Assembly (NCBI RefSeq): GCF_009936275.1
Contig: NZ_AP019797.1
Location: 1,811,890 to 1,843,889 of the forward strand
DNA: 32,000 nucleotides
Origin: Rhodothermus marinus
GTDB lineage: Bacteria; Bacteroidota; Rhodothermia; Rhodothermales; Rhodothermaceae
Direction of reading: 5' to 3'
Shown piece after piece: positions 5,032 to 20,917 of this stretch (positions are counted from its first letter, which is position 1; the number at the start of each line of letters is the position of its first letter). A program made the position numbers and the translations under genes. Below the pieces are notes generated by a model that was not told where the DNA came from, did no database searches, and saw only the letters and a list, made by a program, of their open reading frames with translations.

Positions 5032-8000
5032 TCAAGCAACCCACTCGCCACACAACACCTCCGTTTGACTCAAAACCAGCTCCACAGCCTGTTCCTGTTT
5101 GTCGGGCGGATAGCCATATTTGCGCAGGATACGCTTGACGAGTACGCGCAACTGGGCGCGGGCGCTCTCACGTCTATTCCAATCTACCGTTACACTTTTG
5201 CGTACGCTTTCGACCAGTACCCGGGCGATCTCCTTCAAGGTTTCGTCTCCGAGCACTTCTACAGCGCTTTCATTTACCGCCAGCGCATCATAAAACGCCA
5301 CTTCATCTTCGGACAGGCCGAGCTCTTCACCACGGCGCGTGGCTTCTCGTACCTGCCTGGCAATGGCGATCAGTTCTTCAATCACCTGCGCGGCTTCGAT
5401 GGCGCGATTGTGATACTTGTTCAGGGCCCGCTGGAGCAATTCCGAGAACGCCCGCGACTGCACCACGTTTTTGCGCAGGCGAACCTGGATCTCATCCTGA
5501 AGGAGTTTTTTCAGCGTCTCTACGGCCAGATTTTTCTGCGGCAAGCTGCGCACTTCTTCAAGAAACTCATCGGAAAGAATGGAAATGTCGGGCTTTTCCA
5601 ATCCCGCCGCCGCGAAGATATCCACTACCTCGCAGCCCGAGATCGCCCGGGAAACGAGCTGCCGAACCGCCGCTTCAACCTCCTCCGGGGCGCGCTCCGC
5701 CGAACTCACCGTAGCCTTGATCAGAGCCGCCCGAATCTCCTGAAATAGACCCACCTCGTCGCGAATAGCGAGGGCCTCCTCGTGCGGCACCGCCAAAGCA
5801 AACGCCTTGGACAGCGCCGCCACGGCCTGCAGATAGCGCTTCTTACCGTCCTCCCGCCCCAGAATGAAGTCCATGGCCTCGGCAATGCCCTGCAGGCGCT
5901 CATCGGGAGCAGCAGCCAGCAGGCGCCAATAGTCGAATCCGTGCAGGATGCCGCAGACGACCTCGTACTTCTCCTTCATCACTGCCACGGCTTCGGCCTG
6001 ATCGATGGCCGCCTTGCCCCGACCGCCGCTTTCAGCGTACACGGCAAGCGCCTTCTTGAGGGAATCGGCAATGCCCAGGTAGTCCACCACCAGCCCGCCG
6101 GGCTTGTCGCGAAAGACGCGGTTCACGCGGGCGATGGCCTGCATCAGATTGTGGCCGCTCATCGGCTTGTCGATGTACATCGTGTGCAGGGGCGGCGCAT
6201 CGAAGCCGGTGAGCCACATATCGCGCACAATGACCAGTTCCAGTTCATCGTTTGGGTCTTTGAAACGTCGGGCGAGAAAGTCCCGGCGTTCTTTGTTGCG
6301 GATGTGCGGCTGCCAATCGAGCGGATCCGAGGCAGAGCCGGTCATCACCACCTTGATCTTCCCCCTGGCGTCGTCGTCACTGTGCCACTCAGGACGCAGG
6401 GCCGTAATGGCCTTGTACATCTCCACGCAGATCCGACGGCTCATGCAGACGATCATGCCCTTGCCCAGCAGGGCTTCCCGCCGCCGTTCCCAATGCTGCA
6501 CGAGGTCCTCGGCCACAAGCCGGATGCGCTTCTCCGCTCCCACCAGAGCTTCCAGCGATGCCCATTTCGACTTCAAGCGTTCCCGGCGGACGACATCCTC
6601 TTCGGCTTCGGTAATCTCCTCGATTTCCTCATCGAGCCGCGGTTTCTCCGCCTCATCCAGTTCGATCTTCGCCAACCGGCTTTCGTAGTAGATCGGCACT
6701 GTAGCGCCGTCTTCCACTGCGCGTTGGATATCGTAGATGGAAATGTAATCGCCGAAGACTGCACGGGTGTTTTTGTCTTCCTTCTCGATGGGCGTCCCGG
6801 TAAAGCCAATGAACGATGCGTTGGGAAGCGCATCGCGCATGTGGCGGGCGAAACCGTCAATGAAGTCGTATTGACTGCGGTGGGCTTCGTCGGCGATGAC
6901 AACGATGTTGCTCCGCTCCGACAACGTCGGGTAGCGTTCCCCCCTGGTTTCGGGGAAGAATTTCTGGATGGTGGTGAAAATCACGCCGCCAGAGGCAACT
7001 TGGAGGAGTTCTTTCAGGTGCGCCCGGCTTTCGGCTTGCACGGGGGTTTGGCGCAAGATCTGACGGTTGGCGCTGAAGGTGGCAAAAAGCTGATTGTCCA
7101 AATCGTTGCGGTCGGTTAGCACCACGATGGTGGGGTTTTGCATGGCGGGGTGCCGGATGATTTTGCTGGCGTAGAAGACCATGGAAAGGCTTTTGCCCGA
7201 GCCCTGGGTATGCCAGATGACCCCGACGCGCCGGTCGCCGAACTTCGGGCGATATTCGGCTTTTGGTTCCCGGACCGCAAACGGATCAGCGGCCGCTGCT
7301 TCTTGAAAGCGAGCGTATAGCGTGCTGGCATCCGCTTCAATGCCACAGGCGACGAGTGTGGAAGCGAGCGCCTGATTGACGGCATGGTACTGGTGATAGC
7401 CGGCGGCCTTCTTGGCGATGCCTGCTGTGCCCTTGTCCACCTGTTCGAAGGTGATGAAGTTGAGCACGTAGTCGAGAAAGCGCCGACGCTCGAACATACC
7501 ACGGATCAGGGTCTTCATCCCCGGCTGCACCATACCTTCGCTTTGCTTGTCGTTTCCCGGCTCGCGGTAGAGGTCGGTCCCGTCGATGGTGCGCCAGGGC
7601 ATGAATCGGTCCCAACCGGACGTCAGCGTCCCGAAGCGGGCCTGCATGCCGTCGGAAATGACGAGGATCTCGTTGTAGGTAAAGAGCGAAGGAATCTCCT
7701 GCTTGTAGGTCTGCAACTGATTGAAGGCCGCCCGTAGCGTGGCCTGCACCGTGCCCGGGTCTTTCAACTCGATCACGACCAGCGGCAGACCGTTGACGAA
7801 GAGCACAATATCCGGCCGCCGCTCGTGCTTGTTCTCGATGACCGTGAACTGGTTGACTGCCAGCCAGTCGTTGTTGTCCAGGTTTTCGAGGTCGAGCAGC
7901 CACACCTTGCCGTGCTTCTCCCCTTCCGGTCCCATCCAGGAAACATCCACGCCGTCGGTGAGCATCTGATGGAAGCGGCGGTTGTTCTCGATGAGCGCCG

Positions 8001-8244
8001 GACTCTCGGGCGTGAGCACCTGGCGCAGGGCCTCTTCGATGGCCACGGCGGGCCTGTCCGGATTGATGCGCTCCAGCGCCTCCCGCAACCGCCCCTTGAG
8101 CACCACATCGCCGTAGGTTTCACGTTCCGGCCGTAAGCTCTCCGGGGCGAGGTCGGGGCCGTATGCGGTCTGCCAGCCCAGCGCCTGGAGCTCGTCCAGG
8201 GCCATTTGTTCAACGTCCTCTTCCACAAGATTACCCATGGCCAT
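5032..8244 (-). CDS. hsdR: Type I restriction enzyme R subunit
   Basis: N-terminal PD-(D/E)xK module '[19 protein letters not shown]'. SF2 motif I 'TQGSGKS' (GSGKS at 7189-7203), motif II 'DEAH' (6880-6891), and 'FTGTP'. C-terminal '[30 protein letters not shown]' (DUF3387-type tail). The start is set at ATG 8244 ([24 protein letters not shown], a typical HsdR N-terminus); the ORF-track start at 8322 is an upstream extension. Confidence 0.95.
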
Positions 8245-9385
8245 TCCCGTTTTCGATTTCACGGCGCAACCAATCCAGCAGCGGCTCAATCGCCTCCTCG
8301 TCCAGGCCATCGATAGCGGCAATCTGGATCAGGCGTTTCAACGTCACACGCACCGCCGCCCGTTTTGACTCGCGCCTGCTCCAATCCACGACTGCGAGGT
8401 CTTCCATTTCGTCAAGCAGCGTGTTGGCGAAACGGTGCACCTGCTCTTTCTGGTCGCCCCTGCCACCCAGCAGCCGATGGACGACGAACTCGTAAAGCAG
8501 ATGTACCTTCTCCCGAAACCGCCCCTGATAATCGTCAAGGAGCTGTTGTCTTACTGGCTCGGCGACGGGTTCCGACGGTACCGCTGGCTCTTCTTCTGAA
8601 ACAAATTCGCCCGATTCCCCTGCTTCCTCCTCGACCAATTCCGTTCTTTCCTCCTCCTCGGCTGGCATTGCCCCTTGTAACACATCAAGCACGCTTATGT
8701 AGGCCTGCCGGTCCAGGTGATACAGCAATTCGCTGGGCGGCACGCGCAGTTCGATGGCTTCCTCAGGCGTCTGCGTGCCTGCCTGAACCCGCACCACCAG
8801 CACGCCAGCCTCCTCATCTACCTCAGCCTCCAACGCACAGCCTGCATCGATGCGCTCGTTGAGATGCCGAAACCGCTCTGGCGGCTCTCTGGTGGTCCGA
8901 AGATTGGGCTCCCTGCCGTCGTAGGCGCTCAGAATGAGCGCAATGACCGAGTCGGCCGAGAGCAAATATACCCTCATATGCCGGTTCGCAATCGTGTCGA
9001 GAAACCCATCCCTGCCATGCGCGACGCTGCCGTCCTGATTGCGCAGCTCGTTCAGCCCCTCGACCAGTTTATTGTGCCCCGAGATCACCTTGCCCAGTGG
9101 TCCGACGCCGCGCTGGTTGCGCAATCCCAGGGCGTCCAATACGCAGGAAAGCAACTCCGTTGTCGTCGGCGTGGAGGAAGCCGGTCCCTCTCTCCCCAGC
9201 TCGTTGAGCACCGTCCAGCAGACGCACTCCAGGAAGGACTTGATCAACTCGATGACGCTGCTCCCTTCCCCCTCCCAGGCGCGGACGAGCTCCCGATAGT
9301 GTTGTTGAAGATTGGCGGCATCCGGCCAGCGCTCGACAGCGGCAGGATAGGCCGGGGCGATGTCGTCGAGACGGTTGGCACTCAT
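8231..9385 (-). CDS. 384-aa protein: Abi_C/HEPN-like N-terminal domain + poly-Glu linker + HsdR-C-terminus-like tail
   Basis: '[19 protein letters not shown] ... [17 protein letters not shown] ... [19 protein letters not shown]' follows the Abi_C (abortive infection C-terminus) pattern as I recall it. The C-terminal '[21 protein letters not shown]' matches the HsdR tail. Start ATG 9385 lies 2 nt after the PIN-gene stop (TAG 9388-9390). The 3' end overlaps the hsdR start by 14 nt. Confidence 0.75.
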
Positions 9386-9387
9386 GT

Positions 9388-9876
9388 CTATCTCTCCAGA
9401 ACGAATCGAGCTCGCTCGTGCCGCAACATTTCGAAGGGTGTCATCACCTTGATGCCCAGTCCCACACACACGTTCGGAATCTTGACCTTATTCCGCGTGT
9501 CGGCAGGCTTCTCATGCGTTACAACGACAAACCCACCGGCCAGCGCATGGGCGATAAGCCAGTAGTCCGCCACCTGGAAAAAAGCGTTCTTGGCAGCCGG
9601 GGTGTATCCGTTGCTGTTCACCCATTCGCTCACCGCACCCATCGCTTCGAGAACAGTCGGATCTGGTTTCAAGAAGAAGCCATCCCGCTGAGACGACACC
9701 CAAACCGCCAGTTCATCGTCGCCCGCCTCGAGTTCGTCCTTGACCTTCTCAATGCTGAACACCTTGCCGGCCTGGTTGCTTTCGACCAGCCAGTCCCAGA
9801 AGGCTGGGCAGAAGTCCATGCCGTAATGCAGGTTCTTGGCCGCTATGAAGACGTTGGCATCCAGCAGGTATCTCAT
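9388..9876 (-). CDS. DUF4411-type PIN-like nuclease (putative toxin)
   Basis: 162 aa. 'MRYLLDANVFIAAKNLHYGMDFCPAFWDWL' and 'KIPNVCVGLGIKVMTPFEML' match the DUF4411 pattern I recall. The start overlaps the ImmA stop (ATGA at 9873-9876). Confidence 0.75.
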   Translation of the reverse strand: MRYLLDANVFIAAKNLHYGMDFCPAFWDWLVESNQAGKVFSIEKVKDELEAGDDELAVWVSSQRDGFFLKPDPTVLEAMGAVSEWVNSNGYTPAAKNAFFQVADYWLIAHALAGGFVVVTHEKPADTRNKVKIPNVCVGLGIKVMTPFEMLRHERARFVLER

Positions 9877-11024
9877 GCCGGAATCTCCAGACGTTGCGCC
9901 AGCTCATAAAAGGTCCGGCTTTTTCGCACGCCGAGAAGGCGAAACGCCTCGGTAAAGGGCGTTTGTCCCTCCAACGCGCTCACGATCACCGCCCTGGCGA
10001 ATCGTTTGCCCACATGAGCGCCCAGGGTGTTGTAAAAATCCCCGCCCTTTCCTCCGGGCGAAAGCTGCTTCAACCGCTGTAACTCTTGTTGCCATGCGCT
10101 GTCCAGTGTTTCCCAATTGATCCACCCGGCATCGAACAGACGGCGCAGGATCACCAGGGTGCTGACCTTGAAGCGCCGCGCCAGCCGCTCCAGCGTCTCG
10201 GGTAAAGGTTCGCCTGCCACCAGGTTCGCTCGCACGGCTTCAAGCGGAGCAAGGAATTCCGCCGCCACCGCATTGCACCAGCGCTCGGTCCGCTCGTCGG
10301 GAAGAACGCGCGCGTCGCTATCGCTTACGCCAGATTGTCCCAACCAGAGGTGCGCCAGTTCATGGGCCAGGGTGAACATCTGTCCCGCCTTGCTGTCCCT
10401 GCCATTGATGAACACCAGCGGGGCCAGGTCGTCGGCCAGCGCGAATCCGCGAAACTCGGAGACATCGAGCGGGCGGTGGGTATTGCTGCCGACAATGCCG
10501 CTGACCATCACCAGCACCCCGGCATCTTCGGCCAAGCCGATGAACTGTCGCAGCGCTTCAGTCCATGTCGTCATTCGGGAACGGGCTTCTATATCGAACC
10601 CGAGCTGTTCGCGCATCCGAGCGGCCACCTCCGCCGGGGCATCCTGAAGCGTCGCCGAGCCCACAAAGGCAACCGGCGGTTCGCCATATAGCCGGGCAAA
10701 CTCCCGGTACCAGGCCTGCCGCTGCTGACAGATGTAGATCGTTTCCAGCAGGTCGGCGCTGGGGGAGCTATGGCGTGCCTTCGACGTGGTGCGAAAATCG
10801 GGGATCGGCAATGTCTCTTCCGGCGGTTCGGCCAGAAAGAAATAACCGATAGGGGTATGGGTGGCGCGGGCGAAGTCCTCGAGCTGCCTGAGCGTGGGTT
10901 GCCCCTGCCCTTCTAACCAGTCTTCGAGCTTCTTGAAACGACGAGACAACTCCTCCGGCATGCGGCCAGAGCGCCGCATGGCCCAATACAGGAGTTCGGG
11001 TTTAACAGGCACCCGCAAGGTCAT
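9873..11024 (-). CDS. XRE-type HTH + ImmA/IrrE (COG2856, DUF955/M78) zinc metallopeptidase
   Basis: 383 aa. The N-terminal 'LEDWLEGQGQPTLRQLEDFARATHTPIGYFFL' is HTH-like. HEXXH motif 'HELAH' at 10350-10364 within 'FTLAHELAHLWLG'. Confidence 0.85.
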   Translation of the reverse strand: MTLRVPVKPELLYWAMRRSGRMPEELSRRFKKLEDWLEGQGQPTLRQLEDFARATHTPIGYFFLAEPPEETLPIPDFRTTSKARHSSPSADLLETIYICQQRQAWYREFARLYGEPPVAFVGSATLQDAPAEVAARMREQLGFDIEARSRMTTWTEALRQFIGLAEDAGVLVMVSGIVGSNTHRPLDVSEFRGFALADDLAPLVFINGRDSKAGQMFTLAHELAHLWLGQSGVSDSDARVLPDERTERWCNAVAAEFLAPLEAVRANLVAGEPLPETLERLARRFKVSTLVILRRLFDAGWINWETLDSAWQQELQRLKQLSPGGKGGDFYNTLGAHVGKRFARAVIVSALEGQTPFTEAFRLLGVRKSRTFYELAQRLEIPA

Positions 11025-11053
11025 ACCGCATCCTCCTGAATCTTCTCTTCATC
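11021..11053 (-). repeat. Remnant copy of the hsdS 3' end (..EEKIQEDAV-stop overlapping the immA ATG)
   Basis: 30 of 33 nt are identical to 12628-12660 (tcataccgcatcctcc[t/a]gaatcttctc..). Both copies end in the same ATGA stop/start overlap. Confidence 0.8.
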
Positions 11054-11141
11054 TGGCACGATGTCGGAGCCGTACCTCACGGCCCAGCATATGGACTCGA
11101 GCCAGACACAGACAGCGGCTTTGGTGATAGATTCAGCGAAA

Positions 11142-12059
11142 TCAGCCCTTATCATTGATCCGTCTCCTGTTCCCTGCCTTAAAACGCTCGGGCTGCCCTT
11201 TGACAAACTCCAGCTCATACCGGCGACGGTCAAGAAGCTCCAGAAACGCCAGCTCGTGGCCTTCGGAGACCTTGAGTTTACCGTCTAATTCTTCGACTTC
11301 GACACCATTCTGCTCGCAGAGAGCCTTGAGCAAGGATTTGTCGACATTCTTGGTTAGCTCTTGACTCCGGATCGAGGCAAGGTAGCGGGCTGCCCTCGTA
11401 TGCTTTTTGGCATATTCCTCGATAGGGGCTAGTTCTACGAATGGAAGATCACTTTGGATCGCTTTGATGTTCTTCGGCACCGCATCCAGAATGGCCTGCT
11501 GGAGCTTGCCTGCGAACTCAAATCCACTGGGCCGCAGGATGTAGACGTTCTTCGAGTCAGCGAGAAGGTCGAAGTCAATATCCAGCTTGAACACACGGTC
11601 TTCAATCAGCTTGAGTGAGTCCGAGACTAATCGAATCAGGCGGCTCTTCAAAATCCCCTTGAACTGCGTAGCTCGCCGAAGGGCGGTCAAACGCCGATGC
11701 TTGTTATCCGTGAGCTGGGCGAAGTAACAGAATATGTTCGAAGGATCATTCAACGCACCGCTATTGGTGGGCAGATTGGCAGCTTCGTGCAACGTTTTTA
11801 CTGCGGCTGCCATCTCGTGGTCTAGTGGCAGATAGAGGCACTCTCTACTCTCGTATTTCTCGGACGGCTCGTACTCCCTCGGCCCGTCCTCGCAATTGTT
11901 CAATGCATTCCACGTTGCCTGCGCCATCTCGCGAAGCGCTCTCTGCACGCCCACATCTACTGGTACAACGACGAACGTTTGGTGGTCGCCGGCATCAATG
12001 CCCACGCCAAATGTGGTCACGGTCACGTTCTCGAAATCAAAGTCTATGGTTAACCTCAT
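11142..12059 (-). CDS. 305-aa cytoplasmic protein, KwaB-like (DUF4868-type) candidate
   Basis: Size and position (immediately after, and ATGA-overlapping, a 4-TM gene) fit Kiwa KwaB. 'FKLDIDFDLLADSKNVYILRPSGFEF' resembles the DUF4868 core as I remember it. Not verified by any search. Confidence 0.5.
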   Translation of the reverse strand: MRLTIDFDFENVTVTTFGVGIDAGDHQTFVVVPVDVGVQRALREMAQATWNALNNCEDGPREYEPSEKYESRECLYLPLDHEMAAAVKTLHEAANLPTNSGALNDPSNIFCYFAQLTDNKHRRLTALRRATQFKGILKSRLIRLVSDSLKLIEDRVFKLDIDFDLLADSKNVYILRPSGFEFAGKLQQAILDAVPKNIKAIQSDLPFVELAPIEEYAKKHTRAARYLASIRSQELTKNVDKSLLKALCEQNGVEVEELDGKLKVSEGHELAFLELLDRRRYELEFVKGQPERFKAGNRRRINDKG

Positions 12060-12631
12060 GTCTCAGGCTCTAAATAAACTGTATCGCTCAAGCGATAGGC
12101 TATAAGCTTTTCACCAGAAGCGAGACTCACGCGGCGCGTGATTAGAACCAAGGGCACCCTGCCGGTAAGTGGATTGCCGTCATCCGGCGGATAGACCGTA
12201 AACACTCGGTAGCCCCGTGCAGCAAAGACCAGATTCATGTAGTGCAGGTTTAGGTGCCAGAATAGGAATACAACAAACGCCAAAGCGGCAACAGTAGCCC
12301 CAAGGTCACGCCAGTTCCCAAGATCTTCCGAGTAGAACGGCAGCAGCATCGCGAACAGGTAAACGAGAATGTGGTCGCGATGGTCGTCAGAAGTGCCAAC
12401 AATCAGCTCGCGTTTGTCGTTTTCCTTCTTCGCTGTTGCAATGCGCAGCCATAGAAAGGCGTTAGGAACAACTACCATCAGCGCACAACACCCGACGAAC
12501 CAAGGATCGGGGAGAAGACTGTTTCCACGGATAGCCCATAGGATAAAAAGCGGCGAGATGCTGCTGAGCACCATCAGGAGTCGCGCCGCCTTGAGTCCCT
12601 CGCGATGAACGGTAACAGGACGCATGTTCAT
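12056..12631 (-). CDS. 191-aa four-TM membrane protein, KwaA-like candidate
   Basis: Four hydrophobic segments: 'LLMVLSSISPLFILWAI', 'FVGCCALMVVVPNAFLWL', 'ILVYLFAMLLPFY', 'ATVAALAFVVFLFWHL'. A soluble tail of about 55 aa follows. The start overlaps the hsdS stop (ATGA at 12628-12631). Confidence 0.5.
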   Translation of the reverse strand: MNMRPVTVHREGLKAARLLMVLSSISPLFILWAIRGNSLLPDPWFVGCCALMVVVPNAFLWLRIATAKKENDKRELIVGTSDDHRDHILVYLFAMLLPFYSEDLGNWRDLGATVAALAFVVFLFWHLNLHYMNLVFAARGYRVFTVYPPDDGNPLTGRVPLVLITRRVSLASGEKLIAYRLSDTVYLEPET

Positions 12632-13896
12632 ACCGCATCCTCCAGAATCTTCTCCACATCCTTCACCCGCAACTCGCCAGAGATCAGTTTGGGCAGCAGC
12701 GTGTCGCGCAGGGCAGCAAGGGTGCGGGATTCCACTACATAATGATCCTGCAAAGCTCTCATCTTTGATACAAATTCAGAAAGTTTAGAAGCTAAGTTGC
12801 TTCCTGGCCAGAGAATTGGTAAGCACTCAATATCGCTATTTGCTACAAAAGGCTGTGCTGCCCCTTTTTTGATTACGTCAATGTTTGCATTGCGTAGCGC
12901 AAGATATAACCATTCTCCAAGTTTGCGTTCATGAACTCTAACCAAAGAAGCATTGTTGTTTATCCAAGCTTCGCCGATATGTCGGAAAAACTGCCCGCAA
13001 TATGCTCCCACTCTTCCAACAGTTATGACAAAACCAGTTGCGTTGCTAATAGTTGTGTAGCCCATAATACCCGCACCTCCAAAAACGGGCACGGGACCAT
13101 GATCTTTGATGTACTTTTTGGAAAGCTGCTGGCCACCTTTTAGAGCAGCAAACTCCCTGACCTGTTTTATCTCCCACCCCTCCGGAATCGGCCCCAGTTC
13201 CGACTCCACGAAGCGGGCGGGGAAGAGGCGTAGGATGTCTTCGGGCAGGCCAAGGGCGTCGGGGTTGTCGCGGTAGTGGGCGGCGCGTTTGGCGAACTTT
13301 TCGGGGATGGGGTTTCCGGCGCGCAGGGCGTTGACCACCACCGGGTCGAAGTCCACGAACCAGGACTTGAAGAGCGCCTGGGCCATGGCCTCCAGGGTCT
13401 CGTTCATCCGCCGGTTCAGCTCGATCTTGTCATCCAAGGTGCCGAGGATGTGGGCAATGGCGCGTTGTTCGGGAAGGGGTAAATAAGGCCTCTTAAATCT
13501 TTCTACATGTTCCCATTTCGCCCGCGGCATTCGAGTACCTTCGGAACCTTTGCTGGCAAAGTCGATGAAATCGTGAGCAGCCATCCAATAGAAAAGATAA
13601 TTCTGATCAAAACCCTCTTTTGCACGCACTACCCAGATATCCGTAGAGCAAATGCCATCAAATGGTGCACGTATTACCTTACGGAAATATGGACGCAGTT
13701 TTCCAAAAAGTATGTCGCCTTTTCTAAATCGGAATTTTGCACTACTGACATCGGAAGCATATCCCCAACCAGCAAGTCGTAATGTGCCCTGCTCAATGTG
13801 TTCAAGACCAATATAGGGCATTTTTCCAGCTTCTTCAGGCTGGACAACATCCCGCACAAGTTGGGCCACATCACGAAATGCGACCTCGCTTCCCAT
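12628..13896 (-). CDS. hsdS: Type I R-M specificity subunit with two dissimilar target-recognition domains
   Basis: 422 aa. 'PYIGLEHIEQGTL...FRKGDILFGKLRPYFRKVIRAPFDGICSTDIWVV' is a classic Methylase_S pattern. Central conserved region 'LPEQRAIAHILGTLDDKIELNRRMNETLEAMAQALFKSWFVDFDPV'. Distal 'LAALRDTLLPKLISGELRV'. Confidence 0.92.
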   Translation of the reverse strand: MGSEVAFRDVAQLVRDVVQPEEAGKMPYIGLEHIEQGTLRLAGWGYASDVSSAKFRFRKGDILFGKLRPYFRKVIRAPFDGICSTDIWVVRAKEGFDQNYLFYWMAAHDFIDFASKGSEGTRMPRAKWEHVERFKRPYLPLPEQRAIAHILGTLDDKIELNRRMNETLEAMAQALFKSWFVDFDPVVVNALRAGNPIPEKFAKRAAHYRDNPDALGLPEDILRLFPARFVESELGPIPEGWEIKQVREFAALKGGQQLSKKYIKDHGPVPVFGGAGIMGYTTISNATGFVITVGRVGAYCGQFFRHIGEAWINNNASLVRVHERKLGEWLYLALRNANIDVIKKGAAQPFVANSDIECLPILWPGSNLASKLSEFVSKMRALQDHYVVESRTLAALRDTLLPKLISGELRVKDVEKILEDAV

Positions 13897-13907
13897 AGAT
13901 CACCCCT

Positions 13908-15962
13908 TCATGGATTCAAGAAGGCCCGATTTATCTCTTCAAACAGATTACTGGCTATCCTGAAAACATCAGTGGGGATTTTTTCTGAACCATCCATAAT
14001 CCAGTCCCGTAATACCGCAGCGGGTCGCCACTTCTCGAACCGACCAAGTCCCTTGTACTCAAAGAGCGCCTTCACTTTGTTTACAACGCCATCGGTTGTC
14101 TCTATGTCCTCGTCAAACGTTAGCTGGTCGATATTGTAGGCTTCCCTTACTGCTTCCAGGTAAACCTCTTCAGGAAAAATATCTTCGAGCTCTGCATATG
14201 GTTTTTCTGGCAAAAAATCCCCAATGAATAGGCAACGTCCTGTTTCACCTGCAAATAAGTTTTCGGTGAGCTTCTTGCCTTCCTTGCGACCTGGTTCGTC
14301 ACCATCCAAGAGGGCTACAACCTCGACGTCATGGCCAATAAGCATACTAGCCAGGGGAAATAATTTGCTCAAACCAGCTGATGGAACAATAACCACATCA
14401 TCCCGAAGGGCTGACTCACCGCGCTGTCGAAGCAACTGGTCAAACGCCTTGAGAATCCAGTAGTCGGTAATCCCTTCAACGATTAGTTGGCGCTTGCTGA
14501 TAAAAAGAGATTGAACAAGCTGATACCCTAAGCCTGCCTGAAGTGGGAAAAGAGCATCTTTGTCACGAGGCCAAATGTCTTCTGATACTTTGGTCGTTCC
14601 ATCTTCTGCCTCATAGACAATACGGACTCGTTCCAAGTGGTCTGCATCTATCATAAAAGGGGAGTGGGTTGTGTACATTGTCTGATTTTCTTGGGAAAGC
14701 TTCTCAAGGAACTTGACCACCTTTGCTTGGGCTGTCCCATGCATGTGCAAGCCGGGCTCGTCCAGAAGGAGAATTGCCTTTTGATGTGCCCCTTTCGCTT
14801 CAACAAGGAAAACGGTAAAGAATGAGAAGAAATACTGCATACCCAAGCTGCGCTGGTCCAGTTCGATCTCGCTTGGATCAAGGTCATCAGAAACCCAAAT
14901 ACGGAAAAAGTCCCCGTCTGCTTGATAGCGGAACTTGTGGCGGCGCTGCTCCCACCAGTCTTGGAATTTGGTAGTCATGGCATTTGACGCTGAAGATAGT
15001 TTTATAGCGCGCTCATCAACGTAACGGCGGATCTTTTCAATAGTCTGGGAATCCATTTGCTGTCCTGGCTGGTGCTTCTTCCCAAGTGCTGCTAATTCTT
15101 CCACATCGAGACCCACGTGCTCAAATAAGCATCGCGTTGTGCGAACGCGGGGCGCGGTAGGATTTTGGTTGAGCTGCTGCACAAAAGTTGGGAGATGAAC
15201 GGCGCTGTCAATTACGTCGTAGCGGTCAAAGTAGATGAACTTTGGAAGATTGTTTTCAACCCATTGCTTGGCTTGCGCCAGTTCATAACCAAAGGAAGCG
15301 CGCTCAAGCAAGCTCTGGGCTTTTTTGCTTATATCCTGGAGAAGCTTTTTTTGCCATTGCTCGTTTGATTGCGTAGCGATGGTGTGTACGAGTCTCTCAA
15401 CTTCGGCTTTCGGTACAACTTCATCCGGCCTTGTTGAGGATTGTTGATTTTCAAGCTGATAGAGGGTCTGAAGGAGGGTATTCTTAATTGCACCGAGAGC
15501 ATCGCCCTTACCTTCGGGGGCGGTCAGATCACTCAGCGTTTGCCGAATCTCTCCAATGGCAGTTTTGAATTCAGTACGAGTCAAGACAGAAGTAGGAGGA
15601 GCGGGTTCAAATTCTACTGACAATTCCCAAGAGTAATGGCGCGTACATGTCACCTGCTTGACGTCCGCAAGTGCAGAGCATATTTCGGCAAGCTTCTTGC
15701 GATCGATGTCGTCAAGCTCAAACCTGCCGCTTGCTACAGGCCAATCTTGCTTTTGGAATTCGTCGGTATAACGCCGTCGTGGAAATTCTTTAAGTCCATC
15801 GTATCTTTCACCGTCGGATGGGTTGAGCTTGGAGAGGCCTCGAAACAACGCTGACTTACCTGCTTCATTTTTTCCCACGAAGCAGGTGAGATCACGGACA
15901 CTAACCCATCCTGTATCTTGAATCTTCTTGTAGTTTTGGACGCGAAAAGCTACAAGTTTCAT
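13908..15962 (-). CDS. OLD-family nuclease (ABC-type ATPase + C-terminal TOPRIM)
   Basis: 684 aa. Walker A 'GKNEAGKS' (15852-15875), ABC-signature-like 'SLGMQ', Walker B 'ILLLDEPG', 'TTHSP'. TOPRIM Glu in 'LIVEGITD' (E at 14475-14477) and 'DGD' (14298-14306). The start overlaps the hsdM stop (ATGA at 15959-15962). Confidence 0.8.
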
Positions 15963-17524
15963 AATTCATCCTCCTTCGTATAGAATCCAAGCACCTCCAG
16001 GTTTTTCTTGATTTCCGCCTCCAGCCGGCGGGCTTCCTCGAACTGCTCATAGAGCGTGGCGGTCAGTTCGGCCATCTTCTCTTCAAAGGGAATGCCGTCG
16101 TCCTCTCGCTCCTCCACGCCCACGTAGCGTCCCGGCGTGAGCACGTAGTCGCGCTGGCGGATATCCTCGATGGTGGCCGACTTCCACCAGCCGGGTTTGT
16201 CCTGGTAACCCTCGCCCTTCTTCCAGGCGTGGTACACGTCTGCGATCTGGCGGATTTCCTCCTGGGTCAGCTCCCGGTGCACACGGTCCACCAGGCGGCC
16301 CATGCGCCGGGCGTCGATGAAGAGGGTTTCGCCGGTGCGGTCGCGATAGCCTCGCTTCGGGTCGGCCTTCTTATTGCGGGTGAGGAACCAGAGCGAGACC
16401 GGAATCTGCGTGGTGTAGAAGAGCTGTCCCGGCAGGGCGACGATGCAATCCACCAGGTCGTCCTCGATGATGCCCTTGCGAATCTCGAATTCGGCCTTCG
16501 TGGATGTAGAGAGCGAGCCGTTGGCCATCACGAACCCGGCAATGCCGTTGGGGGCCAGGTGATAGATGAAGTGCTGGATCCAGGCGTAGTTGGCGTTGCT
16601 CGCAGGGGGTACGCCATATTTCCAGCGCGGGTCGTCCGTGAGCCGCTCCCCGCCCCAGTCGCTCATGTTGAAGGGGGGATTGGCCAGGATGTAGTCGGCC
16701 TTCAGGTCCTTGTGCAGGTCGTTGTGGAAGGTGTCGGCATGGTGCGGGCCCAGGTCGGCGTCGATGCGGCGGATGGCCAGGTTCATCTTGCAGAGCCGCC
16801 AGGTGGTGGGGTTCGACTCCTGGCCATAGATGGCGATGTCGCCGAGCTTCCCCCCGTGGGCTTCCACGAACTTCTCCGACTGCACGAACATGCCACCCGA
16901 GCCGCAACAGGGGTCGTACACGCGCCCGCGGTACGGCTCGATCATCTCAACCAGAAGTTGCACGACGCACTGGGGCGTGTAGTACTCGCCGCCGCGCTTG
17001 CCCTCCTTCTCGGCAAATTTGCCCAGAAAATATTCGTACACCCGCCCAAGCGGGTCTCGGACGCCGTATTCCTGCGCCTTCAGGTTGATATCGCCGACAA
17101 GCTTCACCAGCTCACCCAGGCGCACCTTGTCCAACGTCGGGCGGGCGTAGTCCTTGGGCAACACCCCCTTGAGCGACGGGTTCTCCCGCTCGATGGCCGC
17201 CATCGCCTCGTCGATGACCTGGCCGATGGTGGGCTGTGGCGCAGCCGCCTGAATTTTCTCCCAGCGCGCCTCGGGCGGCACCCAGAAGACGTTGGCGGCC
17301 AGGTACTCGTCGCGATCCTCGGGGTCGGTGAACTCGGTGTCCTGCTTGGCCTTGAGCTCCTGGTACTTTTCCTCGAAGGCGTCGGAAATGTATTTGAGGA
17401 AAATCAGCCCCAGCACCACGTGCTTGTACTCGGCGGCGTCCATATGGCCGCGTAACTTGTCGGCCATCTCCCAGAGCTTGTTCTCAAAGCCCAGATTGGC
17501 GCCGTTTGTTTTATTCGTATCCAT
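15959..17524 (-). CDS. hsdM: Type I R-M N6-adenine DNA methyltransferase subunit
   Basis: 521 aa. HsdM_N pattern '[34 protein letters not shown]', AdoMet motif '[12 protein letters not shown]', catalytic 'NPPF' (16670-16681). Confidence 0.95.
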
Positions 17525-17759
17525 AAGCTATTTGATCGATGCAGAAGGTACGGCTGTGACAGGATGAAAAAAATGCATTCTTTTAACACTTCCAGATTGG
17601 TCAGGATTCCATCCCGGGCAAAAACAGTCGCTGAGCACCTGTTCATCGTGATAAAGTATGCTATCGGATTCAGTATACATCTCCTGGGTACTTTTCTATG
17701 CTTTGCTGCATGATTTTAAATTGCAAAATTTATAAGATTTATAAGCCCGATCAGTTTCT
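17525..17759 (-). promoter_or_regulatory. AT-rich leader/promoter region of the hsd operon and right island boundary
   Basis: Conspicuously AT-rich 235 nt between the ABC-ATPase stop and the hsdM ATG. It contains the tandem 9-mer atttataag x2 (17728-17745) and, on the minus strand, TATAAATTTTGCAATTTAAAAT. No transcription start can be assigned from sequence alone. Confidence 0.35.
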
Positions 17760-18386
17760 TCACCGAAACCGCCGCAAATCCACCTGCTGCATGCAGGCGG
17801 CCGCTTCGTCGGCGTCGTTGGTGGCCACTACCACCAGTCGGCCTTTCGCGCGGGCTTCTTCAAGCAATGCTTCAACCAGCCGGCGGCCGGCCTCGTCCAG
17901 GTTCGAGCGCGGCTCGTCCAGGAGCCAGAGCGGCGGATCGGCCAGCAGCGCGGCGGCCAGCCGGAGCCGCTGGCGCATGCCCGAGGAGAAAATCGCCACG
18001 GGCTCGTCGGCAAACGCCCGGAGCTGCACCCGTTCCAGCCAGCTTTCCACACGCCGGCGTCCGTCAGAAAGGCCCCGGGCCCGGGCGATAAATGTCAGGT
18101 TCTCCCGCGCGGTGAAAGCGTCGTAGAGCTGCAGGTAGGGTGCAGCCAGTCCCACGTAGAAGGGACGATCGGCAGGCTCGATCGGGCGGCCATTGACCTG
18201 GAGCCGCACCTCGCCCTCCGAGGGACGCAGCACGCCCGCCAGTATGCGCAAAAGCGTCGACTTGCCCGAGCCGTTCGGGCCCGTCACGGCCAGCGTCTCG
18301 CCGGCCGCGATCGTGAACGAAAGCCCCGCAAACAGACGCCGGTAACCGAAGCGCTTGCCGAGCGCGATCACTTCCAGTCGGTCCAT
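17760..18386 (-). CDS. ABC transporter ATP-binding protein (CcmA-like size and motifs)
   Basis: Walker A 'GPNGSGKST', signature 'SSGMRQR', Walker B 'LWLLDEP'. ATG 18386 (MDRLEVIALGKRF) is preferred over the ORF-track start at 18455, which lies only 14 nt from the divergent polB start. No permease gene is adjacent. Confidence 0.8.
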   Translation of the reverse strand: MDRLEVIALGKRFGYRRLFAGLSFTIAAGETLAVTGPNGSGKSTLLRILAGVLRPSEGEVRLQVNGRPIEPADRPFYVGLAAPYLQLYDAFTARENLTFIARARGLSDGRRRVESWLERVQLRAFADEPVAIFSSGMRQRLRLAAALLADPPLWLLDEPRSNLDEAGRRLVEALLEEARAKGRLVVVATNDADEAAACMQQVDLRRFR

Positions 18387-18469
18387 GCCTGCAAGATAAG
18401 CAACCGGACCGCTCCGAAACGCATCGCCGCTCCCGCGGTATATCCTTTTGCTCAAGTTTTACTTCAGCC

Positions 18470-20827: not shown

Positions 20828-20917
20828 AAAAATCCGGGCGCCCTCCCGCCACGAAACTATTCCCAAATCCATTGCGTTCGGAACGCGATTCTGGCACGTA
20901 AACCCGCCGGGAAATCC

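What the first reader, a model, noticed from the sequence alone, without database searches (positions are those of the whole stretch)
11021..12660. 33-nt duplication of the hsdS 3' end brackets the Kiwa-like cassette - an insertion or recombination scar
The segment 12628-12660 (tcataccgcatcctccagaatcttctccacatc) is repeated at 11021-11053 (tcataccgcatcctcctgaatcttctcttcatc). 30 of 33 nt are identical and the copies lie 1607 nt apart in direct orientation. On the coding strand the first copy encodes the true HsdS C-terminus ..VEKILEDAV-stop, overlapping the 4-TM gene ATG. The second encodes an orphan ..EEKIQEDAV-stop, overlapping the immA ATG with the same ATGA junction. The first codons after the ATG are also similar (ATGA[A/C]C[A/T]TGCG). 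The simplest reading is that hsdS was once directly coupled to immA. The 4-TM/305-aa cassette then entered by recombination at the conserved hsdS 3' end, duplicating it. This gives a precise boundary for a mobile defence cassette with no recombinase of its own.
Basis: seen in the sequence. Interest (0 to 1): 0.65.

Follow-up and report, generated by a model that had tools for sequence, protein, structure and literature searches.

The report
Recombination scar between stacked defence modules
The repeated 33-40 bases are real: the second copy is the tail of a tiny leftover gene, made of the first 32 codons of a restriction gene (hsdR) fused to the last 12 codons of a specificity gene (hsdS), and it marks the seam where a Kiwa anti-phage module was spliced in front of an older ImmA module inside one restriction-modification operon.

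Summary
About 1e-6 such pairs are expected by chance.

Relatives do have hsdS directly coupled to immA, which is the "empty site" (L006-L008, L010). One Rhodothermus chromosomal site carries three different cargo arrays.

The orphan is not a duplication made by insertion. It is the last 13 codons of a 44-codon ORF (11021-11155, minus strand). The first 32 codons of that ORF are a remnant of an HsdR N-terminus.

In relatives the same linker is a 79-aa HsdR'::'HsdS chimera that follows kwaB. There it precedes two unrelated 217-aa ORFs (L012, L014). A separate full-length linker precedes immA in L023.

Similar chimeric mini-ORFs separate other defence cargoes in other genomes (PDC-S06, AbiP2). 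Their stops always overlap the next start codon.

The window is L012-like down to base 11059. It is like conspecific R. marinus from base 11060 onward.

The repeat therefore marks a seam between two cargo modules, each of which keeps its native hsd flanks. The seam probably survives because it carries immA's ribosome-binding and coupling site (inferred). Embedding of defence genes in Type I R-M operons is known. These linker scars appear to be undescribed.

The parts
15959..17524 (-). hsdM (521 aa), first gene of the operon. Its last 9 codons differ from relatives because the OLD-like gene is inserted at the hsdM/hsdS overlap.
   Evidence: Pfam N6_Mtase 2.7e-111 and HsdM_N 2.3e-28. Homology to L097 and L012 stops at 15987. 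C-termini are compared.
13908..15962 (-). OLD/Gabija-like ABC-ATPase + TOPRIM cargo gene (684 aa) between hsdM and hsdS. GC is 0.48.
   Evidence: Pfam AAA_15 9.9e-25 and OLD-like_TOPRIM 1.2e-4. PADLOC Old 4.3e-26. Absent from L012, L097 and L006.
12628..13896 (-). hsdS (422 aa). The conserved 3' end at 12621-12740 includes repeat copy 1 (12621-12660), and its stop overlaps the kwaA ATG.
   Evidence: Pfam Methylase_S 6.6e-19 and PADLOC Specificity_I 5e-80. Repeat. The central and 3' conserved regions are 88-93% identical to L097, L012 and L006, while the TRDs are unrelated.
12056..12631 (-). kwaA (191 aa, membrane protein of Kiwa)
   Evidence: PADLOC KwaA PDLC00218 at 2.4e-95. Precomputed Pfam PF28043 KwaA.
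11142..12059 (-). kwaB (305 aa, DUF4868 protein of Kiwa)
   Evidence: PADLOC KwaB PDLC00228 at 1.1e-132. Pfam KwaB 39.6 bits against a cut-off of 26.3.
11060..11155 (-). hsdR' stub: the first 32 codons of linker ORF orf44 (MIRADFAESITKAAVCVWLESICWAVRYGSDI). Its ATG overlaps the kwaB stop by 14 nt, exactly as a full-length hsdR start does in other Kiwa loci.
   Evidence: A profile built from 16 genuine full-length HsdR N-termini hits only the true hsdR (3e-25) and this ORF (4.5e-7) among 738 window ORFs. It aligns to the orf79 linkers of L012 and L014. kwaB is followed directly by full hsdR in 9 loci.
11021..11059 (-). 'hsdS stub: the last 12 codons plus stop of orf44 (VPDEEKIQEDAV*). It contains GGAGGA 6 nt upstream of the immA ATG, and its TGA overlaps that ATG.
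   Evidence: Repeat copy 2. Homology to conspecific L097 (orf44r-immA...) begins at 11060 and runs to 2997 at 93.9%.
9873..11024 (-). immA (383 aa, HTH + M78 metallopeptidase), first gene of the older cargo module
   Evidence: Pfam Peptidase_M78 9.2e-17. More than 8000 homologues were found, and the closest ones sit directly behind hsdS.
9388..9876 (-). DUF4411 gene (162 aa), partner of immA
   Evidence: Pfam DUF4411 3.1e-57. It is adjacent to immA in every related locus examined.
8231..9385 (-). Abi_C-domain gene (384 aa), third gene of the immA module
   Evidence: Pfam Abi_C 7.2e-10 and T1RH-like_C 9.2e-5 at its C-terminus. The same gene is present in L006 and L097.
5032..8238 (-). hsdR (1068 aa as called), last gene of the operon
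   Evidence: Pfam HSDR_N 8e-57, SWI2_SNF2 3.4e-81 and T1RH-like_C 5e-137. Gene call.

Best explanation
**What it is.** The orphan hsdS 3' end is the tail of a 44-codon chimeric linker ORF (11021-11155, minus strand). The ORF consists of an hsdR 5' remnant of 32 codons joined to an hsdS 3' remnant of 12 codons plus stop. It is the seam between two defence-cargo modules that each came from a separate Type I R-M operon.

**The two modules.**
- Module A was hsdS | kwaA-kwaB | hsdR. The hsdR start overlapped the kwaB stop.
- Module B was hsdS | immA-DUF4411-Abi_C | hsdR. The hsdS stop overlapped the immA start.

**How they were joined.** Recombination joined the first codons of A's hsdR to the last codons of B's hsdS. 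This placed Kiwa in front of the ImmA module inside one operon. In this lineage the join was first a 79-codon linker of the kind kept in L012 and L014. That join sits at the motif LRD(A/T)L, which the HsdR N-terminus and the HsdS C-terminus share.

**The window's version.** The window's linker is shorter by exactly 35 codons. Two routes could produce this. One is an in-frame deletion. The other is a one-sided homologous plus microhomology join: a left crossover near the hsdM 3' end at about 15987, and a right joint at 11059/11060.

**What is shown.** The repeat, the chimeric nature of the ORF, the empty site, the alternative occupancy, the breakpoints, and the recurrence of such linkers behind other cargoes.

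**What is inferred.** The stub is retained because it carries immA's native translation-initiation region (GGAGGA plus the ATGA stop/start overlap). The open frame lets ribosomes pass from kwaB through the linker to immA. The conserved hsd flanks serve as homology arms that let cargo be stacked and exchanged without a dedicated recombinase.
For: **Chimeric ORF.**
- orf44 aligns with the 79-aa ORFs that follow kwaB in L012, L014 and L015, with one 105-nt in-frame gap.
- orf79 residues 1-57 match the N-termini of full-length HsdR at 56-71% identity, with E-values down to 2e-19.
- Its last 26 residues are an HsdS C-terminus, LRDTLLPKLISGELRVPDVEKILEDAV.
- A genuine-HsdR N-terminal profile hits orf44 at 4.5e-7 and otherwise only the true hsdR.

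**Ancestral states.**
- kwaB is followed directly by full hsdR in 9 of 76 evaluable species-level Kiwa loci.
- An hsdS 3' end lies within 150 nt upstream of kwaA in 29 of 71 evaluable loci.
- hsdS is directly coupled to immA in L006-L008 and L010.

**Breakpoints.**
- Window 11059-12732 matches L012 at 90.6%.
- Window 2997-11060 matches conspecific L097 at 93.9%.
- The left flank, 15987-21000, matches L097 at 95.9%.
- The differing block, 11060-15986, coincides with the low-GC block (GC 0.48-0.55 against 0.60-0.62).

**One chromosomal site, three arrays**.
- Window: [OLD] hsdS [kwaAB] L44 [immA...].
- L012: hsdS [kwaAB] L79 [orf217a].
- L097: hsdS [PDC-S06] L79' [orf276] L44r [immA...].

**Same linker, different cargo downstream.** The same linker lineage precedes three unrelated downstream cargoes: orf217a, orf217b (BLASTP E=4.6 between them) and immA.

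**Generality.**
- About 20 clusters of 54-108-aa HsdR'::'HsdS chimeras exist, with several different junctions.
- Such linkers lie behind Kiwa, PDC-S06 (7e-281), AbiP2 (1.8e-200) and an 85-aa ORF.
- Further stubs occur in L016, L019, L021, L024, L025, L039, L042, L071 and L093.

**Coupling.**
- The stop overlaps the next start at all 12 junctions that could be read: eight of the eleven ORFs printed (L019, L023, L024, the first L025 ORF, L039, L093, L101; not L016, L021, the second L025 ORF or L042), the three L097 junctions, and the L071 stub.
- No promoter or terminator excess was found in the operon.

**Constraint.**
- The hsdR' part evolves under relaxed constraint: dN 0.21-0.47 against 0.05-0.08 for the adjacent kwaB.
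- The 'hsdS part is conserved: dN/dS 0.05-0.3.

**Composition.** Linkers have hsd-like GC (0.585-0.64), while the cargoes are at 0.44-0.54.
Against: - No transcript, ribosome-profiling or mutational data exist, so the translational-coupling role is inference only.
- L033 and L034 have the kwaB stop overlapping the immA ATG with no stub at all. The stub is therefore not indispensable.
- The order of events cannot be resolved from these data. A 79-codon linker followed by a 105-nt deletion, or a single microhomology join, both fit. The microhomology at 11059/11060 is weak (C|G..CCGG).
- The strict canonical-junction DNA pattern found only 3 loci in the metagenome collection. The canonical form is not abundant.
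- dN/dS values rest on 31-54 codons and are imprecise.
- The donor of the low-GC block is unknown.
Confidence: 0.8

Rival explanations
1. A kwaA-kwaB cassette inserted at the resident hsdS 3' end and duplicated that target. The two repeats would then be the exact ends of a mobile cassette.
For: The direct repeats bracket kwaAB. Both copies end in the same ATGA stop/start junction. An empty site, hsdS-immA, exists.
Against: - The 96 nt between kwaB and the orphan are an hsdR 5' remnant, not hsdS or cargo.
- The copies are only 87.5% identical, and their longest exact match is 16 nt. The cassette itself is 98.5% identical between the window and L011.
- The same orphan-immA junction exists in R. 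marinus L097, which has no Kiwa at all.
- The block that differs from conspecific L097 extends to 15986.
- No recombinase or terminal inverted repeats were found.
Confidence: 0.08
2. orf44 and orf79 encode a functional micro-protein, for example a regulator or adaptor that uses an HsdR N-terminal piece and an HsdS C-terminal helix. On this view the ORF is conserved for its product and is not a scar.
For: - The ORFs are intact in every example.
- The window's 105-nt gap is in frame.
- A Shine-Dalgarno-like AGGAG lies upstream of the linker ATG.
- About 20 protein clusters exist across phyla.
- dN/dS of the N-part is below 1, at 0.31-0.74.
Against: - Length varies from 44 to 108 aa, and the junction position varies.
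- The N-part accumulates 4-fold more non-synonymous change than kwaB.
- Some stubs are only N-parts or only C-parts, or are fused to unrelated tails (L025, L016, L021).
- L033 and L034 lack the linker entirely.
- A 30-55-aa piece of a nuclease-domain N-terminus is unlikely to fold alone (general knowledge).
- Proteins listed in a protein database are intact ORFs by construction, so that sample is biased.
Confidence: 0.07
3. The orphan is what is left of a second complete hsdS gene that once lay between kwaB and immA (tandem hsdS genes). That gene would have been later eroded by deletion.
For: Extra or partial hsdS genes are common in Type I loci (general knowledge). The orphan is unmistakably hsdS-derived.
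Against: In the undeleted relatives (L012, L014, L023, L097) the hsdS-like part is only about 26 codons. It is fused in frame to an hsdR N-terminus, and no TRD or central conserved region is present.
Confidence: 0.03
4. The similarity is convergent or due to chance. Two ribosome-binding/overlap sites would look alike because both need GGAGG plus ATGA.
For: The 16-nt exact core, GGAGGATGCGGTATGA, is exactly the Shine-Dalgarno plus stop/start overlap.
Against: The 35/40 match has an expectation of about 1e-6. The homology continues at protein level and in relatives over about 80 nt.
Confidence: 0.01

Closest known systems
Defence genes embedded in Type I R-M operons: PrrC in EcoprrI, TgvAB in V. 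cholerae VPI-2, and the 'guilt-by-embedding' candidates of Payne et al. 2024
   Same: Same-orientation defence cargo sits between hsd genes. Kiwa, the OLD-like ATPase, ImmA/DUF4411, Abi_C, PDC-S06 and AbiP2 all occupy such slots here. The sources are PMC11411939 and bioRxiv 10.1101/2024.01.29.577857.
   Different: Those papers describe that embedding occurs. Payne et al. leave its biological significance unexplored and offer only the 'genomic sink' hypothesis for its origin. The hsdR'::'hsdS linker ORFs at module boundaries are not mentioned there: zero occurrences of hsdS, remnant, recombination or truncated.
hsdS domain shuffling by recombination in the conserved central and 3' regions (classical TRD exchange; phase-variable hsdS invertons, PMC7672463)
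   Same: The same conserved hsdS 3' segment acts as a recombination substrate. The window and L011 are 98.5-98.7% identical except for a swapped TRD2, whose right edge is at 12732/12733 in that segment.
   Different: Here the partner sequence is hsdR, which is non-homologous and joined through microhomology. The orientation is direct, no invertase is present, and the outcome is the addition of whole defence modules rather than a new specificity.
Homology-facilitated illegitimate recombination (one homologous anchor plus a microhomology joint). Recalled from my own knowledge of de Vries and Wackernagel 2002; not checked in the library.
   Same: The left breakpoint lies in conserved hsdM (about 15987). 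The right joint lies at short microhomology, C|G..CCGG, at 11059/11060.
   Different: This is inferred from end-points only. The competence of the host and the actual event are unknown. A two-step route (homologous crossover, then a 105-nt deletion) fits equally well.
Integron gene cassettes / Campbell-type insertions flanked by direct repeats
   Same: Arrays of promoterless, same-orientation cargo units are separated by a recurring short conserved element.
   Different: No attC-like inverted repeat, no integrase and no recombinase gene were found. The recurring element is a coding remnant of the flanking operon genes.
Evolutionary unit spanning the 3' end of one ORF, the spacer and the 5' end of the next (Tsuru and Kobayashi 2008, PMC2568036)
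   Same: The unit that is inherited and recombined straddles gene boundaries rather than coinciding with ORFs (abstract seen).
   Different: That case concerns tandem paralogous lipoprotein genes in S. aureus, not defence cargo in R-M operons. I saw only the abstract.

Membership tests
Kiwa defence system | KwaA: small multi-pass membrane protein matching KwaA profiles | tested here: met
   PADLOC KwaA PDLC00218 at 2.4e-95, full length 7-189/191. Precomputed PF28043 KwaA.
Kiwa defence system | KwaB: DUF4868 protein encoded immediately downstream of kwaA | tested here: met
   PADLOC KwaB PDLC00228 at 1.1e-132. Pfam PF16162 at 39.6 bits, above the 26.3 cut-off. The genes overlap by 4 nt.
Kiwa defence system | Anti-phage activity | not testable with these tools
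   Needs plaque assays.
Type I restriction-modification operon | hsdM, hsdS and hsdR all present, on the same strand | tested here: met
   N6_Mtase 2.7e-111, Methylase_S 6.6e-19, and HSDR_N/SWI2_SNF2/T1RH-like_C. All lie on the minus strand with overlapping or near-abutting ends.
Defence cargo embedded in a Type I R-M operon (PrrC-type arrangement) | Non-hsd genes in the same orientation between hsd genes, matching known or candidate defence families | tested here: met
   OLD-like gene between hsdM and hsdS. Kiwa, ImmA/DUF4411 and Abi_C between hsdS and hsdR.
Transposon / IS insertion with target-site duplication | Near-identical short direct repeats immediately flanking an element with terminal inverted repeats and a transposase | tested here: not met
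   The repeats are 87.5% identical. An hsdR' stub lies between cargo and repeat. No inverted repeats were found at the ends. No transposase domain was found in the operon.
Integron cassette array | attC-type imperfect inverted repeat at each cassette end, and an intI integrase nearby | tested here: not met
   No such inverted repeats in 9000-15000. No integrase among the operon ORFs. The wider window was not scanned for intI.
Phase-variable hsdS shufflon / inverton | Partial hsdS copies carrying TRDs in inverted orientation, plus a site-specific recombinase | tested here: not met
   The orphan is in direct orientation, is 12 codons long, and lacks any TRD. No recombinase was found.
HsdR'::'HsdS chimeric linker mini-ORFs (family defined here) | N-terminal part homologous to the HsdR N-terminus | tested here: met
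   The genuine-HsdR profile hits orf44 at 4.5e-7. It aligns to orf79 of L012 and L014.
HsdR'::'HsdS chimeric linker mini-ORFs (family defined here) | C-terminal part homologous to the HsdS C-terminus, with the stop overlapping the next gene's start | tested here: met
   VPDEEKIQEDAV* against VKDVEKILEDAV* of the resident HsdS. ATGA overlap with immA.
HsdR'::'HsdS chimeric linker mini-ORFs (family defined here) | Located between two cargo modules inside a Type I R-M operon | tested here: met
   Lies between kwaB and immA. Analogous positions occur in L012, L014, L023, L097, L102 and L019.

The most novel reading that the evidence does not exclude
Type I R-M operons of this family may behave as recombinase-free cassette platforms. 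Every defence cargo would travel with a conserved hsdS 3' end upstream, which doubles as its ribosome-binding and coupling site, and an hsdR 5' end downstream. Homologous or microhomology recombination between these flanks would then stack, swap and delete cargo. Each stacking would leave a translated hsdR'::'hsdS mini-ORF that keeps the operon translationally coupled. The window's repeat would be one visible joint of such an array. The short motifs shared by the HsdR N-terminus and the HsdS C-terminus (LRDxL, AAL, xPG/xPD) would be preferred crossover points.
Probability: 0.4. Interest if true: 0.7.

Novelty: new variant of a known kind. Interest (0 to 1): 0.58.

Why it matters
Embedding of defence systems inside Type I R-M, BREX and similar operons is now used to discover new systems. 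How cargo gets there has been left open.

These seams give a readable record of the process. Cargo moves as a module that keeps its hsd flanks, and modules are concatenated by hsdR-5'/hsdS-3' joints. The joints are recognisable as 44-108-aa chimeric ORFs, which gene callers currently label 'hypothetical' or 'R subunit'.

This has three practical uses:
- It offers a marker for delimiting cargo modules and counting stacking events in pangenomes.
- It explains how one chromosomal site in Rhodothermus holds three different defence arrays.
- It suggests a testable role for hsdS tails as portable translation-initiation regions.

Tried and rejected
- **Pfam on the linkers.** orf44 and the two orf79 sequences gave no family even at E<=10. 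The HsdR and HsdS homology had to be shown by tblastn and custom profiles.
- **Whole-block replacement.** I first suspected that a foreign low-GC hsdS replaced the resident hsdS and left its tail behind. I rejected this in that form. The window's hsdS shares 88-93% identical conserved regions with relatives, and the sequence upstream of the orphan is hsdR-like, not hsdS-like.
- **Target-site duplication, IS or integron models.** No inverted repeats, recombinase or attC-like structure were found.
- **Promoter and terminator scan of 8000-18000.** Counts were at shuffle expectation and nothing fell in the linker.
- **dN/dS.** It indicates relaxed constraint on the hsdR' part, but the sequences are too short to separate 'neutral' from 'weakly selected'.
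- **Metagenome scan with a strict canonical-junction pattern.** It returned only 3 loci. This was useful for context but gives no frequency estimate.
- **Literature.** Searches for DUF4411+ImmA+Type I (0 papers), Kiwa+hsdR and hsd remnants found no description of these linkers.
- **Source of the 'hsdS stub.** I could not tell from its sequence whether the window's stub derives from an L012-type or an L097-type linker. There are too few diagnostic sites.

Full report
**1. Observation**

The minus strand of 5032-17524 is one operon. Its gene order is hsdM (15959-17524), an OLD-like ATPase (13908-15962), hsdS (12628-13896), kwaA (12056-12631), kwaB (11142-12059), a 44-codon ORF (11021-11155), immA (9873-11024), DUF4411 (9388-9876), an Abi_C gene (8231-9385) and hsdR (5032-8238).

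The repeat finder reports 11014-11053 and 12621-12660 as a 40-nt direct repeat at 35/40, spaced 1607 nt.

Copy 1 encodes the HsdS C-terminus VEKILEDAV*, and its TGA overlaps the kwaA ATG. Copy 2 encodes EEKIQEDAV*, and its TGA overlaps the immA ATG.

Random first-order Markov windows give at best 28-29/40, and the binomial expectation is about 9e-7. The same structure occurs in NCBI AP019796.1, a Logan assembly, JGI contig L005 and ENA contig L011.

**2. Empty site and alternative occupancy**

The closest ImmA relatives with usable context are L006, L007 and L008 (87% identity). They show hsdM-hsdS-immA-DUF4411-Abi_C-hsdR. Their hsdS ends ...LISGELRVPDVEKILEDVA*, and its stop overlaps the immA ATG. 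L010 (80% identity) is similar, with a GTGA overlap.

The same chromosomal neighbourhood (DNA polymerase B and an ABC ATPase on one side; a phosphoribosyltransferase-like gene and a QTMAN_N glycosyltransferase on the other) carries three different arrays:
- The window: [OLD] hsdS [kwaAB] L44 [immA-DUF4411-Abi_C].
- L012: hsdS [kwaAB] orf79 [orf217].
- L096-L099 and L103: hsdS [759-aa PDC-S06 ATPase] orf79' [orf276] orf44r [immA-DUF4411-Abi_C].

The L096-L099 and L103 contigs are Rhodothermus marinus by the NCBI name of P0243.

**3. What the orphan really is**

The orphan is not free-standing. It is the 3' end of an ORF whose ATG overlaps the kwaB stop by 14 nt.

In L012, L013, L014 and L015 (KwaB 84-87% identical) the corresponding ORF is 79 codons long. 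The window's ORF aligns to it with a single 105-nt, 35-codon in-frame gap.

The last 26 residues of orf79, LRDTLLPKLISGELRVPDVEKILEDAV, are an HsdS C-terminus.

Its first roughly 55 residues..ES.VE.AA.AWLES..W.VRYGPEIAPG...ER.SYGQVVLEQHLRD, are an HsdR N-terminus. They match the starts of full-length HsdR genes in many Kiwa loci at 56-71% identity, with E-values down to 2e-19. In L026 and L032 such a full hsdR begins at the very position where orf79 begins, overlapping kwaB's end.

A profile built only from 16 genuine HsdR N-termini finds two ORFs among 738 in the window: the true hsdR (3e-25) and orf44 (4.5e-7). Independently, JGI annotated several of these small ORFs as 'R subunit', and some carry precomputed PF04313 hits.

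The switch from HsdR to HsdS sequence in orf79 lies in LRD(A/T)L. HsdR N-termini (VVL.QRLRDALARLNP) and HsdS C-termini (LAALRDTLLPKL) share this motif.

**4. Breakpoints**

blastn of the operon against relatives gives these matches:
- Window 11059-12732 matches L012 7328-9001 at 90.6%. This covers the hsdS 3' end, kwaA, kwaB and linker codons 1-32.
- Window 2997-11060 matches L097 10164-18240 at 93.9%. This covers the last 40 nt of L097's orf44r, then immA through hsdR and beyond.
- Window 15987-21000 matches L097 at 95.9% and L012 at 89.7%.

The window is therefore Kiwa-lineage up to 11059 and conspecific-R. marinus-like from 11060. The seam lies inside orf44.

The segment that distinguishes the window from L097, 11060-15986, coincides with the low-GC block (0.48-0.55 against 0.60-0.62 for hsdM, immA and hsdR).

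At the seam, the L012 linker reads ..GAGATC|GCCCCGG, L097 orf44r reads ..TTGCGC|GTGCCGG, and the window reads ..GACATC|GTGCCAG. This is only short microhomology.

The window's N-part shares derived oddities with the L012 and L014 linkers: RYG, and C or D in place of the conserved G in WLESxGW. It therefore descends from an already-formed linker. The present junction is either a later in-frame deletion or a one-sided homologous plus microhomology join. These data cannot decide between the two.

**5. Generality**

A protein search with orf79 returned about 20 clusters of 54-108-aa HsdR'::'HsdS chimeras. Most have the RLRD|TLLPKLISGELRV junction, and several have other junctions.

R. marinus L097 has three hsdS 3' ends in one operon. 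They belong to the true hsdS, to orf79', and to a different 44-codon chimera, orf44r (MCSIRPTFAESSVEETA|LRDTLLPKLISGELRVPDVEKILEDAV*). Each overlaps the next ATG.

Linkers follow several kinds of cargo:
- Kiwa.
- PDC-S06 (7e-281).
- AbiP2 reverse transcriptase (1.8e-200; L102).
- An 85-aa ORF (L100, L101, L104).

In L019 a 49-codon chimera (..EIAPGE|LRVKDAERF..) sits directly upstream of kwaA. Further stubs occur in L016, L021, L024, L025, L039, L042, L071 and L093. L023, a Chloroflexi MAG, has kwaAB, then a full linker, then immA-DUF4411-hsdR.

The L012 and L014 linkers are the same lineage, but they precede unrelated 217-aa ORFs (BLASTP E=4.6), whereas the window's precedes immA.

Among 80 species-level loci of this Kiwa subfamily:
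- 29 of 71 evaluable loci have an hsdS 3' end within 150 nt upstream of kwaA.
- 9 of 76 have hsdR directly after kwaB.
- 27 of 76 have hsdR further downstream.

**6. How it most likely works**

The following is shown. Each cargo module is bounded upstream by an hsdS 3' end and downstream by an hsdR 5' start. When two modules are in one operon, the boundary is an hsdR'::'hsdS chimera.

The following is inferred:

(i) *Formation.* The chimera forms by recombination between two related R-M operons, or by deletion between tandem operons. The crossover falls at short motifs shared by the hsdR 5' and hsdS 3' ends.

(ii) *Retention.* The 'hsdS tail carries the downstream gene's translation-initiation region. 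In the window this is GGAGGA, a 6-nt spacer, and an ATG overlapping the TGA. The linker keeps hsdR's own Shine-Dalgarno sequence and ATG overlapping kwaB. The open frame thus passes ribosomes from kwaB to immA. Three observations are consistent with this:
- The stop overlaps the next start in all 12 junctions examined.
- All length variants are in frame.
- The 'hsdS part is conserved (dN/dS 0.05-0.3), while the hsdR' part drifts (dN 0.21-0.47 against 0.05-0.08 in kwaB).

(iii) *The flanks as recombination substrates.* The window and L011 are 98.5-98.7% identical, yet TRD2 of hsdS has been swapped. The right edge of that swap lies in the same conserved 3' segment.

(iv) *Shortening of the repeat.* The repeat has shrunk from about 86 nt to 40 nt, with a longest exact match of 16 nt. 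This would lower loss of Kiwa by repeat recombination. That point is speculative.

L033 and L034 have the kwaB stop overlapping the immA ATG with no stub. This shows the end-point of such erosion, and that the stub is not essential.

**7. Comparison with what is known**

Embedding of defence genes in Type I R-M operons is established. Examples are PrrC, TgvAB (PMC11411939), and the guilt-by-embedding survey (bioRxiv 10.1101/2024.01.29.577857).

That survey states that the significance of embedding remains to be explored and offers only a genomic-sink idea for its origin. It does not mention hsdS, remnants or recombination. The EcoSal review (PMC12707154) mentions only PrrC and BrxU as embedded cases. 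Searches for related descriptions found none.

The feature is not a transposon target duplication, an integron cassette or an hsdS inverton. The defining features of each were tested and not met.

**8. Verdict**

The repeat is real and is a recombination scar.

The mechanism and boundaries need correcting. The repeat is a seam between two hsd-flanked cargo modules, embodied in an hsdR'::'hsdS mini-ORF. It is not a duplication that brackets a self-contained mobile cassette.

I rate it a new variant of a known kind, of moderate-to-good interest, because it makes the open question of how cargo becomes embedded directly testable.

Noticed in passing
window 13897-15990: The OLD-like ATPase/TOPRIM gene sits exactly at the place where hsdM and hsdS overlap by 11 nt in L006, L012 and L097. 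The hsdM C-terminus is changed from ..LEVLGYGG* to ..[13 protein letters not shown], with a new AAGGAGG plus ATGA junction. The pentamer TCTAT occurs on both sides of the insert. No hsd stub is visible here.
   Followed up: partly
window 12733-13167 (hsdS TRD2) vs L011 3145-3642: The window and metagenome contig L011 are 98.5-98.7% identical on both sides, but this target-recognition domain is unrelated (422-aa vs 443-aa HsdS). This is a very recent specificity swap whose right edge lies in the same conserved hsdS 3' segment as repeat copy 1.
   Followed up: partly
window 8231-9385 (Abi_C gene), C-terminal ~45 codons: The Abi_C protein's C-terminus matches the C-terminal domain of HsdR: Pfam T1RH-like_C at 9.2e-5 and PADLOC PDC-S15. 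By tblastn it also hits the 3' end of hsdR in L097 (40% identity, 8e-5). It could be a docking domain for the R-M complex, in the manner of PrrC, or another hsd-derived remnant.
   Followed up: no
L014 2675-3328 (also L025 4981-5531): The 217-aa ORF after the linker in L014 has a weak but above-threshold Pfam hit to IS200-like Y1 transposase (4.3e-5; 24.1 bits against a cut-off of 23). The equally long ORF in L012 is unrelated. A HUH-type enzyme next to such seams might deserve a look.
   Followed up: no
L006 10784-12368: In the 'empty-site' metagenome locus, hsdR matches only residues 1-55 and 585-1067 of the window's HsdR. It seems to have lost about 530 internal codons while the immA module is intact.
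   Followed up: no
L033 5735-5760; L034 6895-6915: In a Halioglobus MAG and a Burkholderiaceae MAG the kwaB stop overlaps the immA ATG directly (..CAATGACC..). The gene order is the same as in the window, but there is no linker at all.
   Followed up: partly
L097 6725-9004 and 9237-10067: R. marinus strains carry, in place of Kiwa, a 759-aa PDC-S06 ABC-ATPase (7e-281, with a PrrC-like region) and an unannotated 276-aa ORF. Each is separated from the next module by a chimeric linker. Three hsdS 3' ends occur in one operon, with exact matches of up to 47 nt between them.
   Followed up: partly
L016-L095 (80 loci): This highly conserved Kiwa subfamily (KwaB 50-69% identical) spans many bacterial phyla and several archaea, including Methanotrichaceae, ANME-2, Argoarchaeum, Nitrosopumilaceae and Thaumarchaeota MAGs. 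It is often embedded in closely related Type I R-M operons, which suggests wide horizontal spread of the R-M + Kiwa unit.
   Followed up: no
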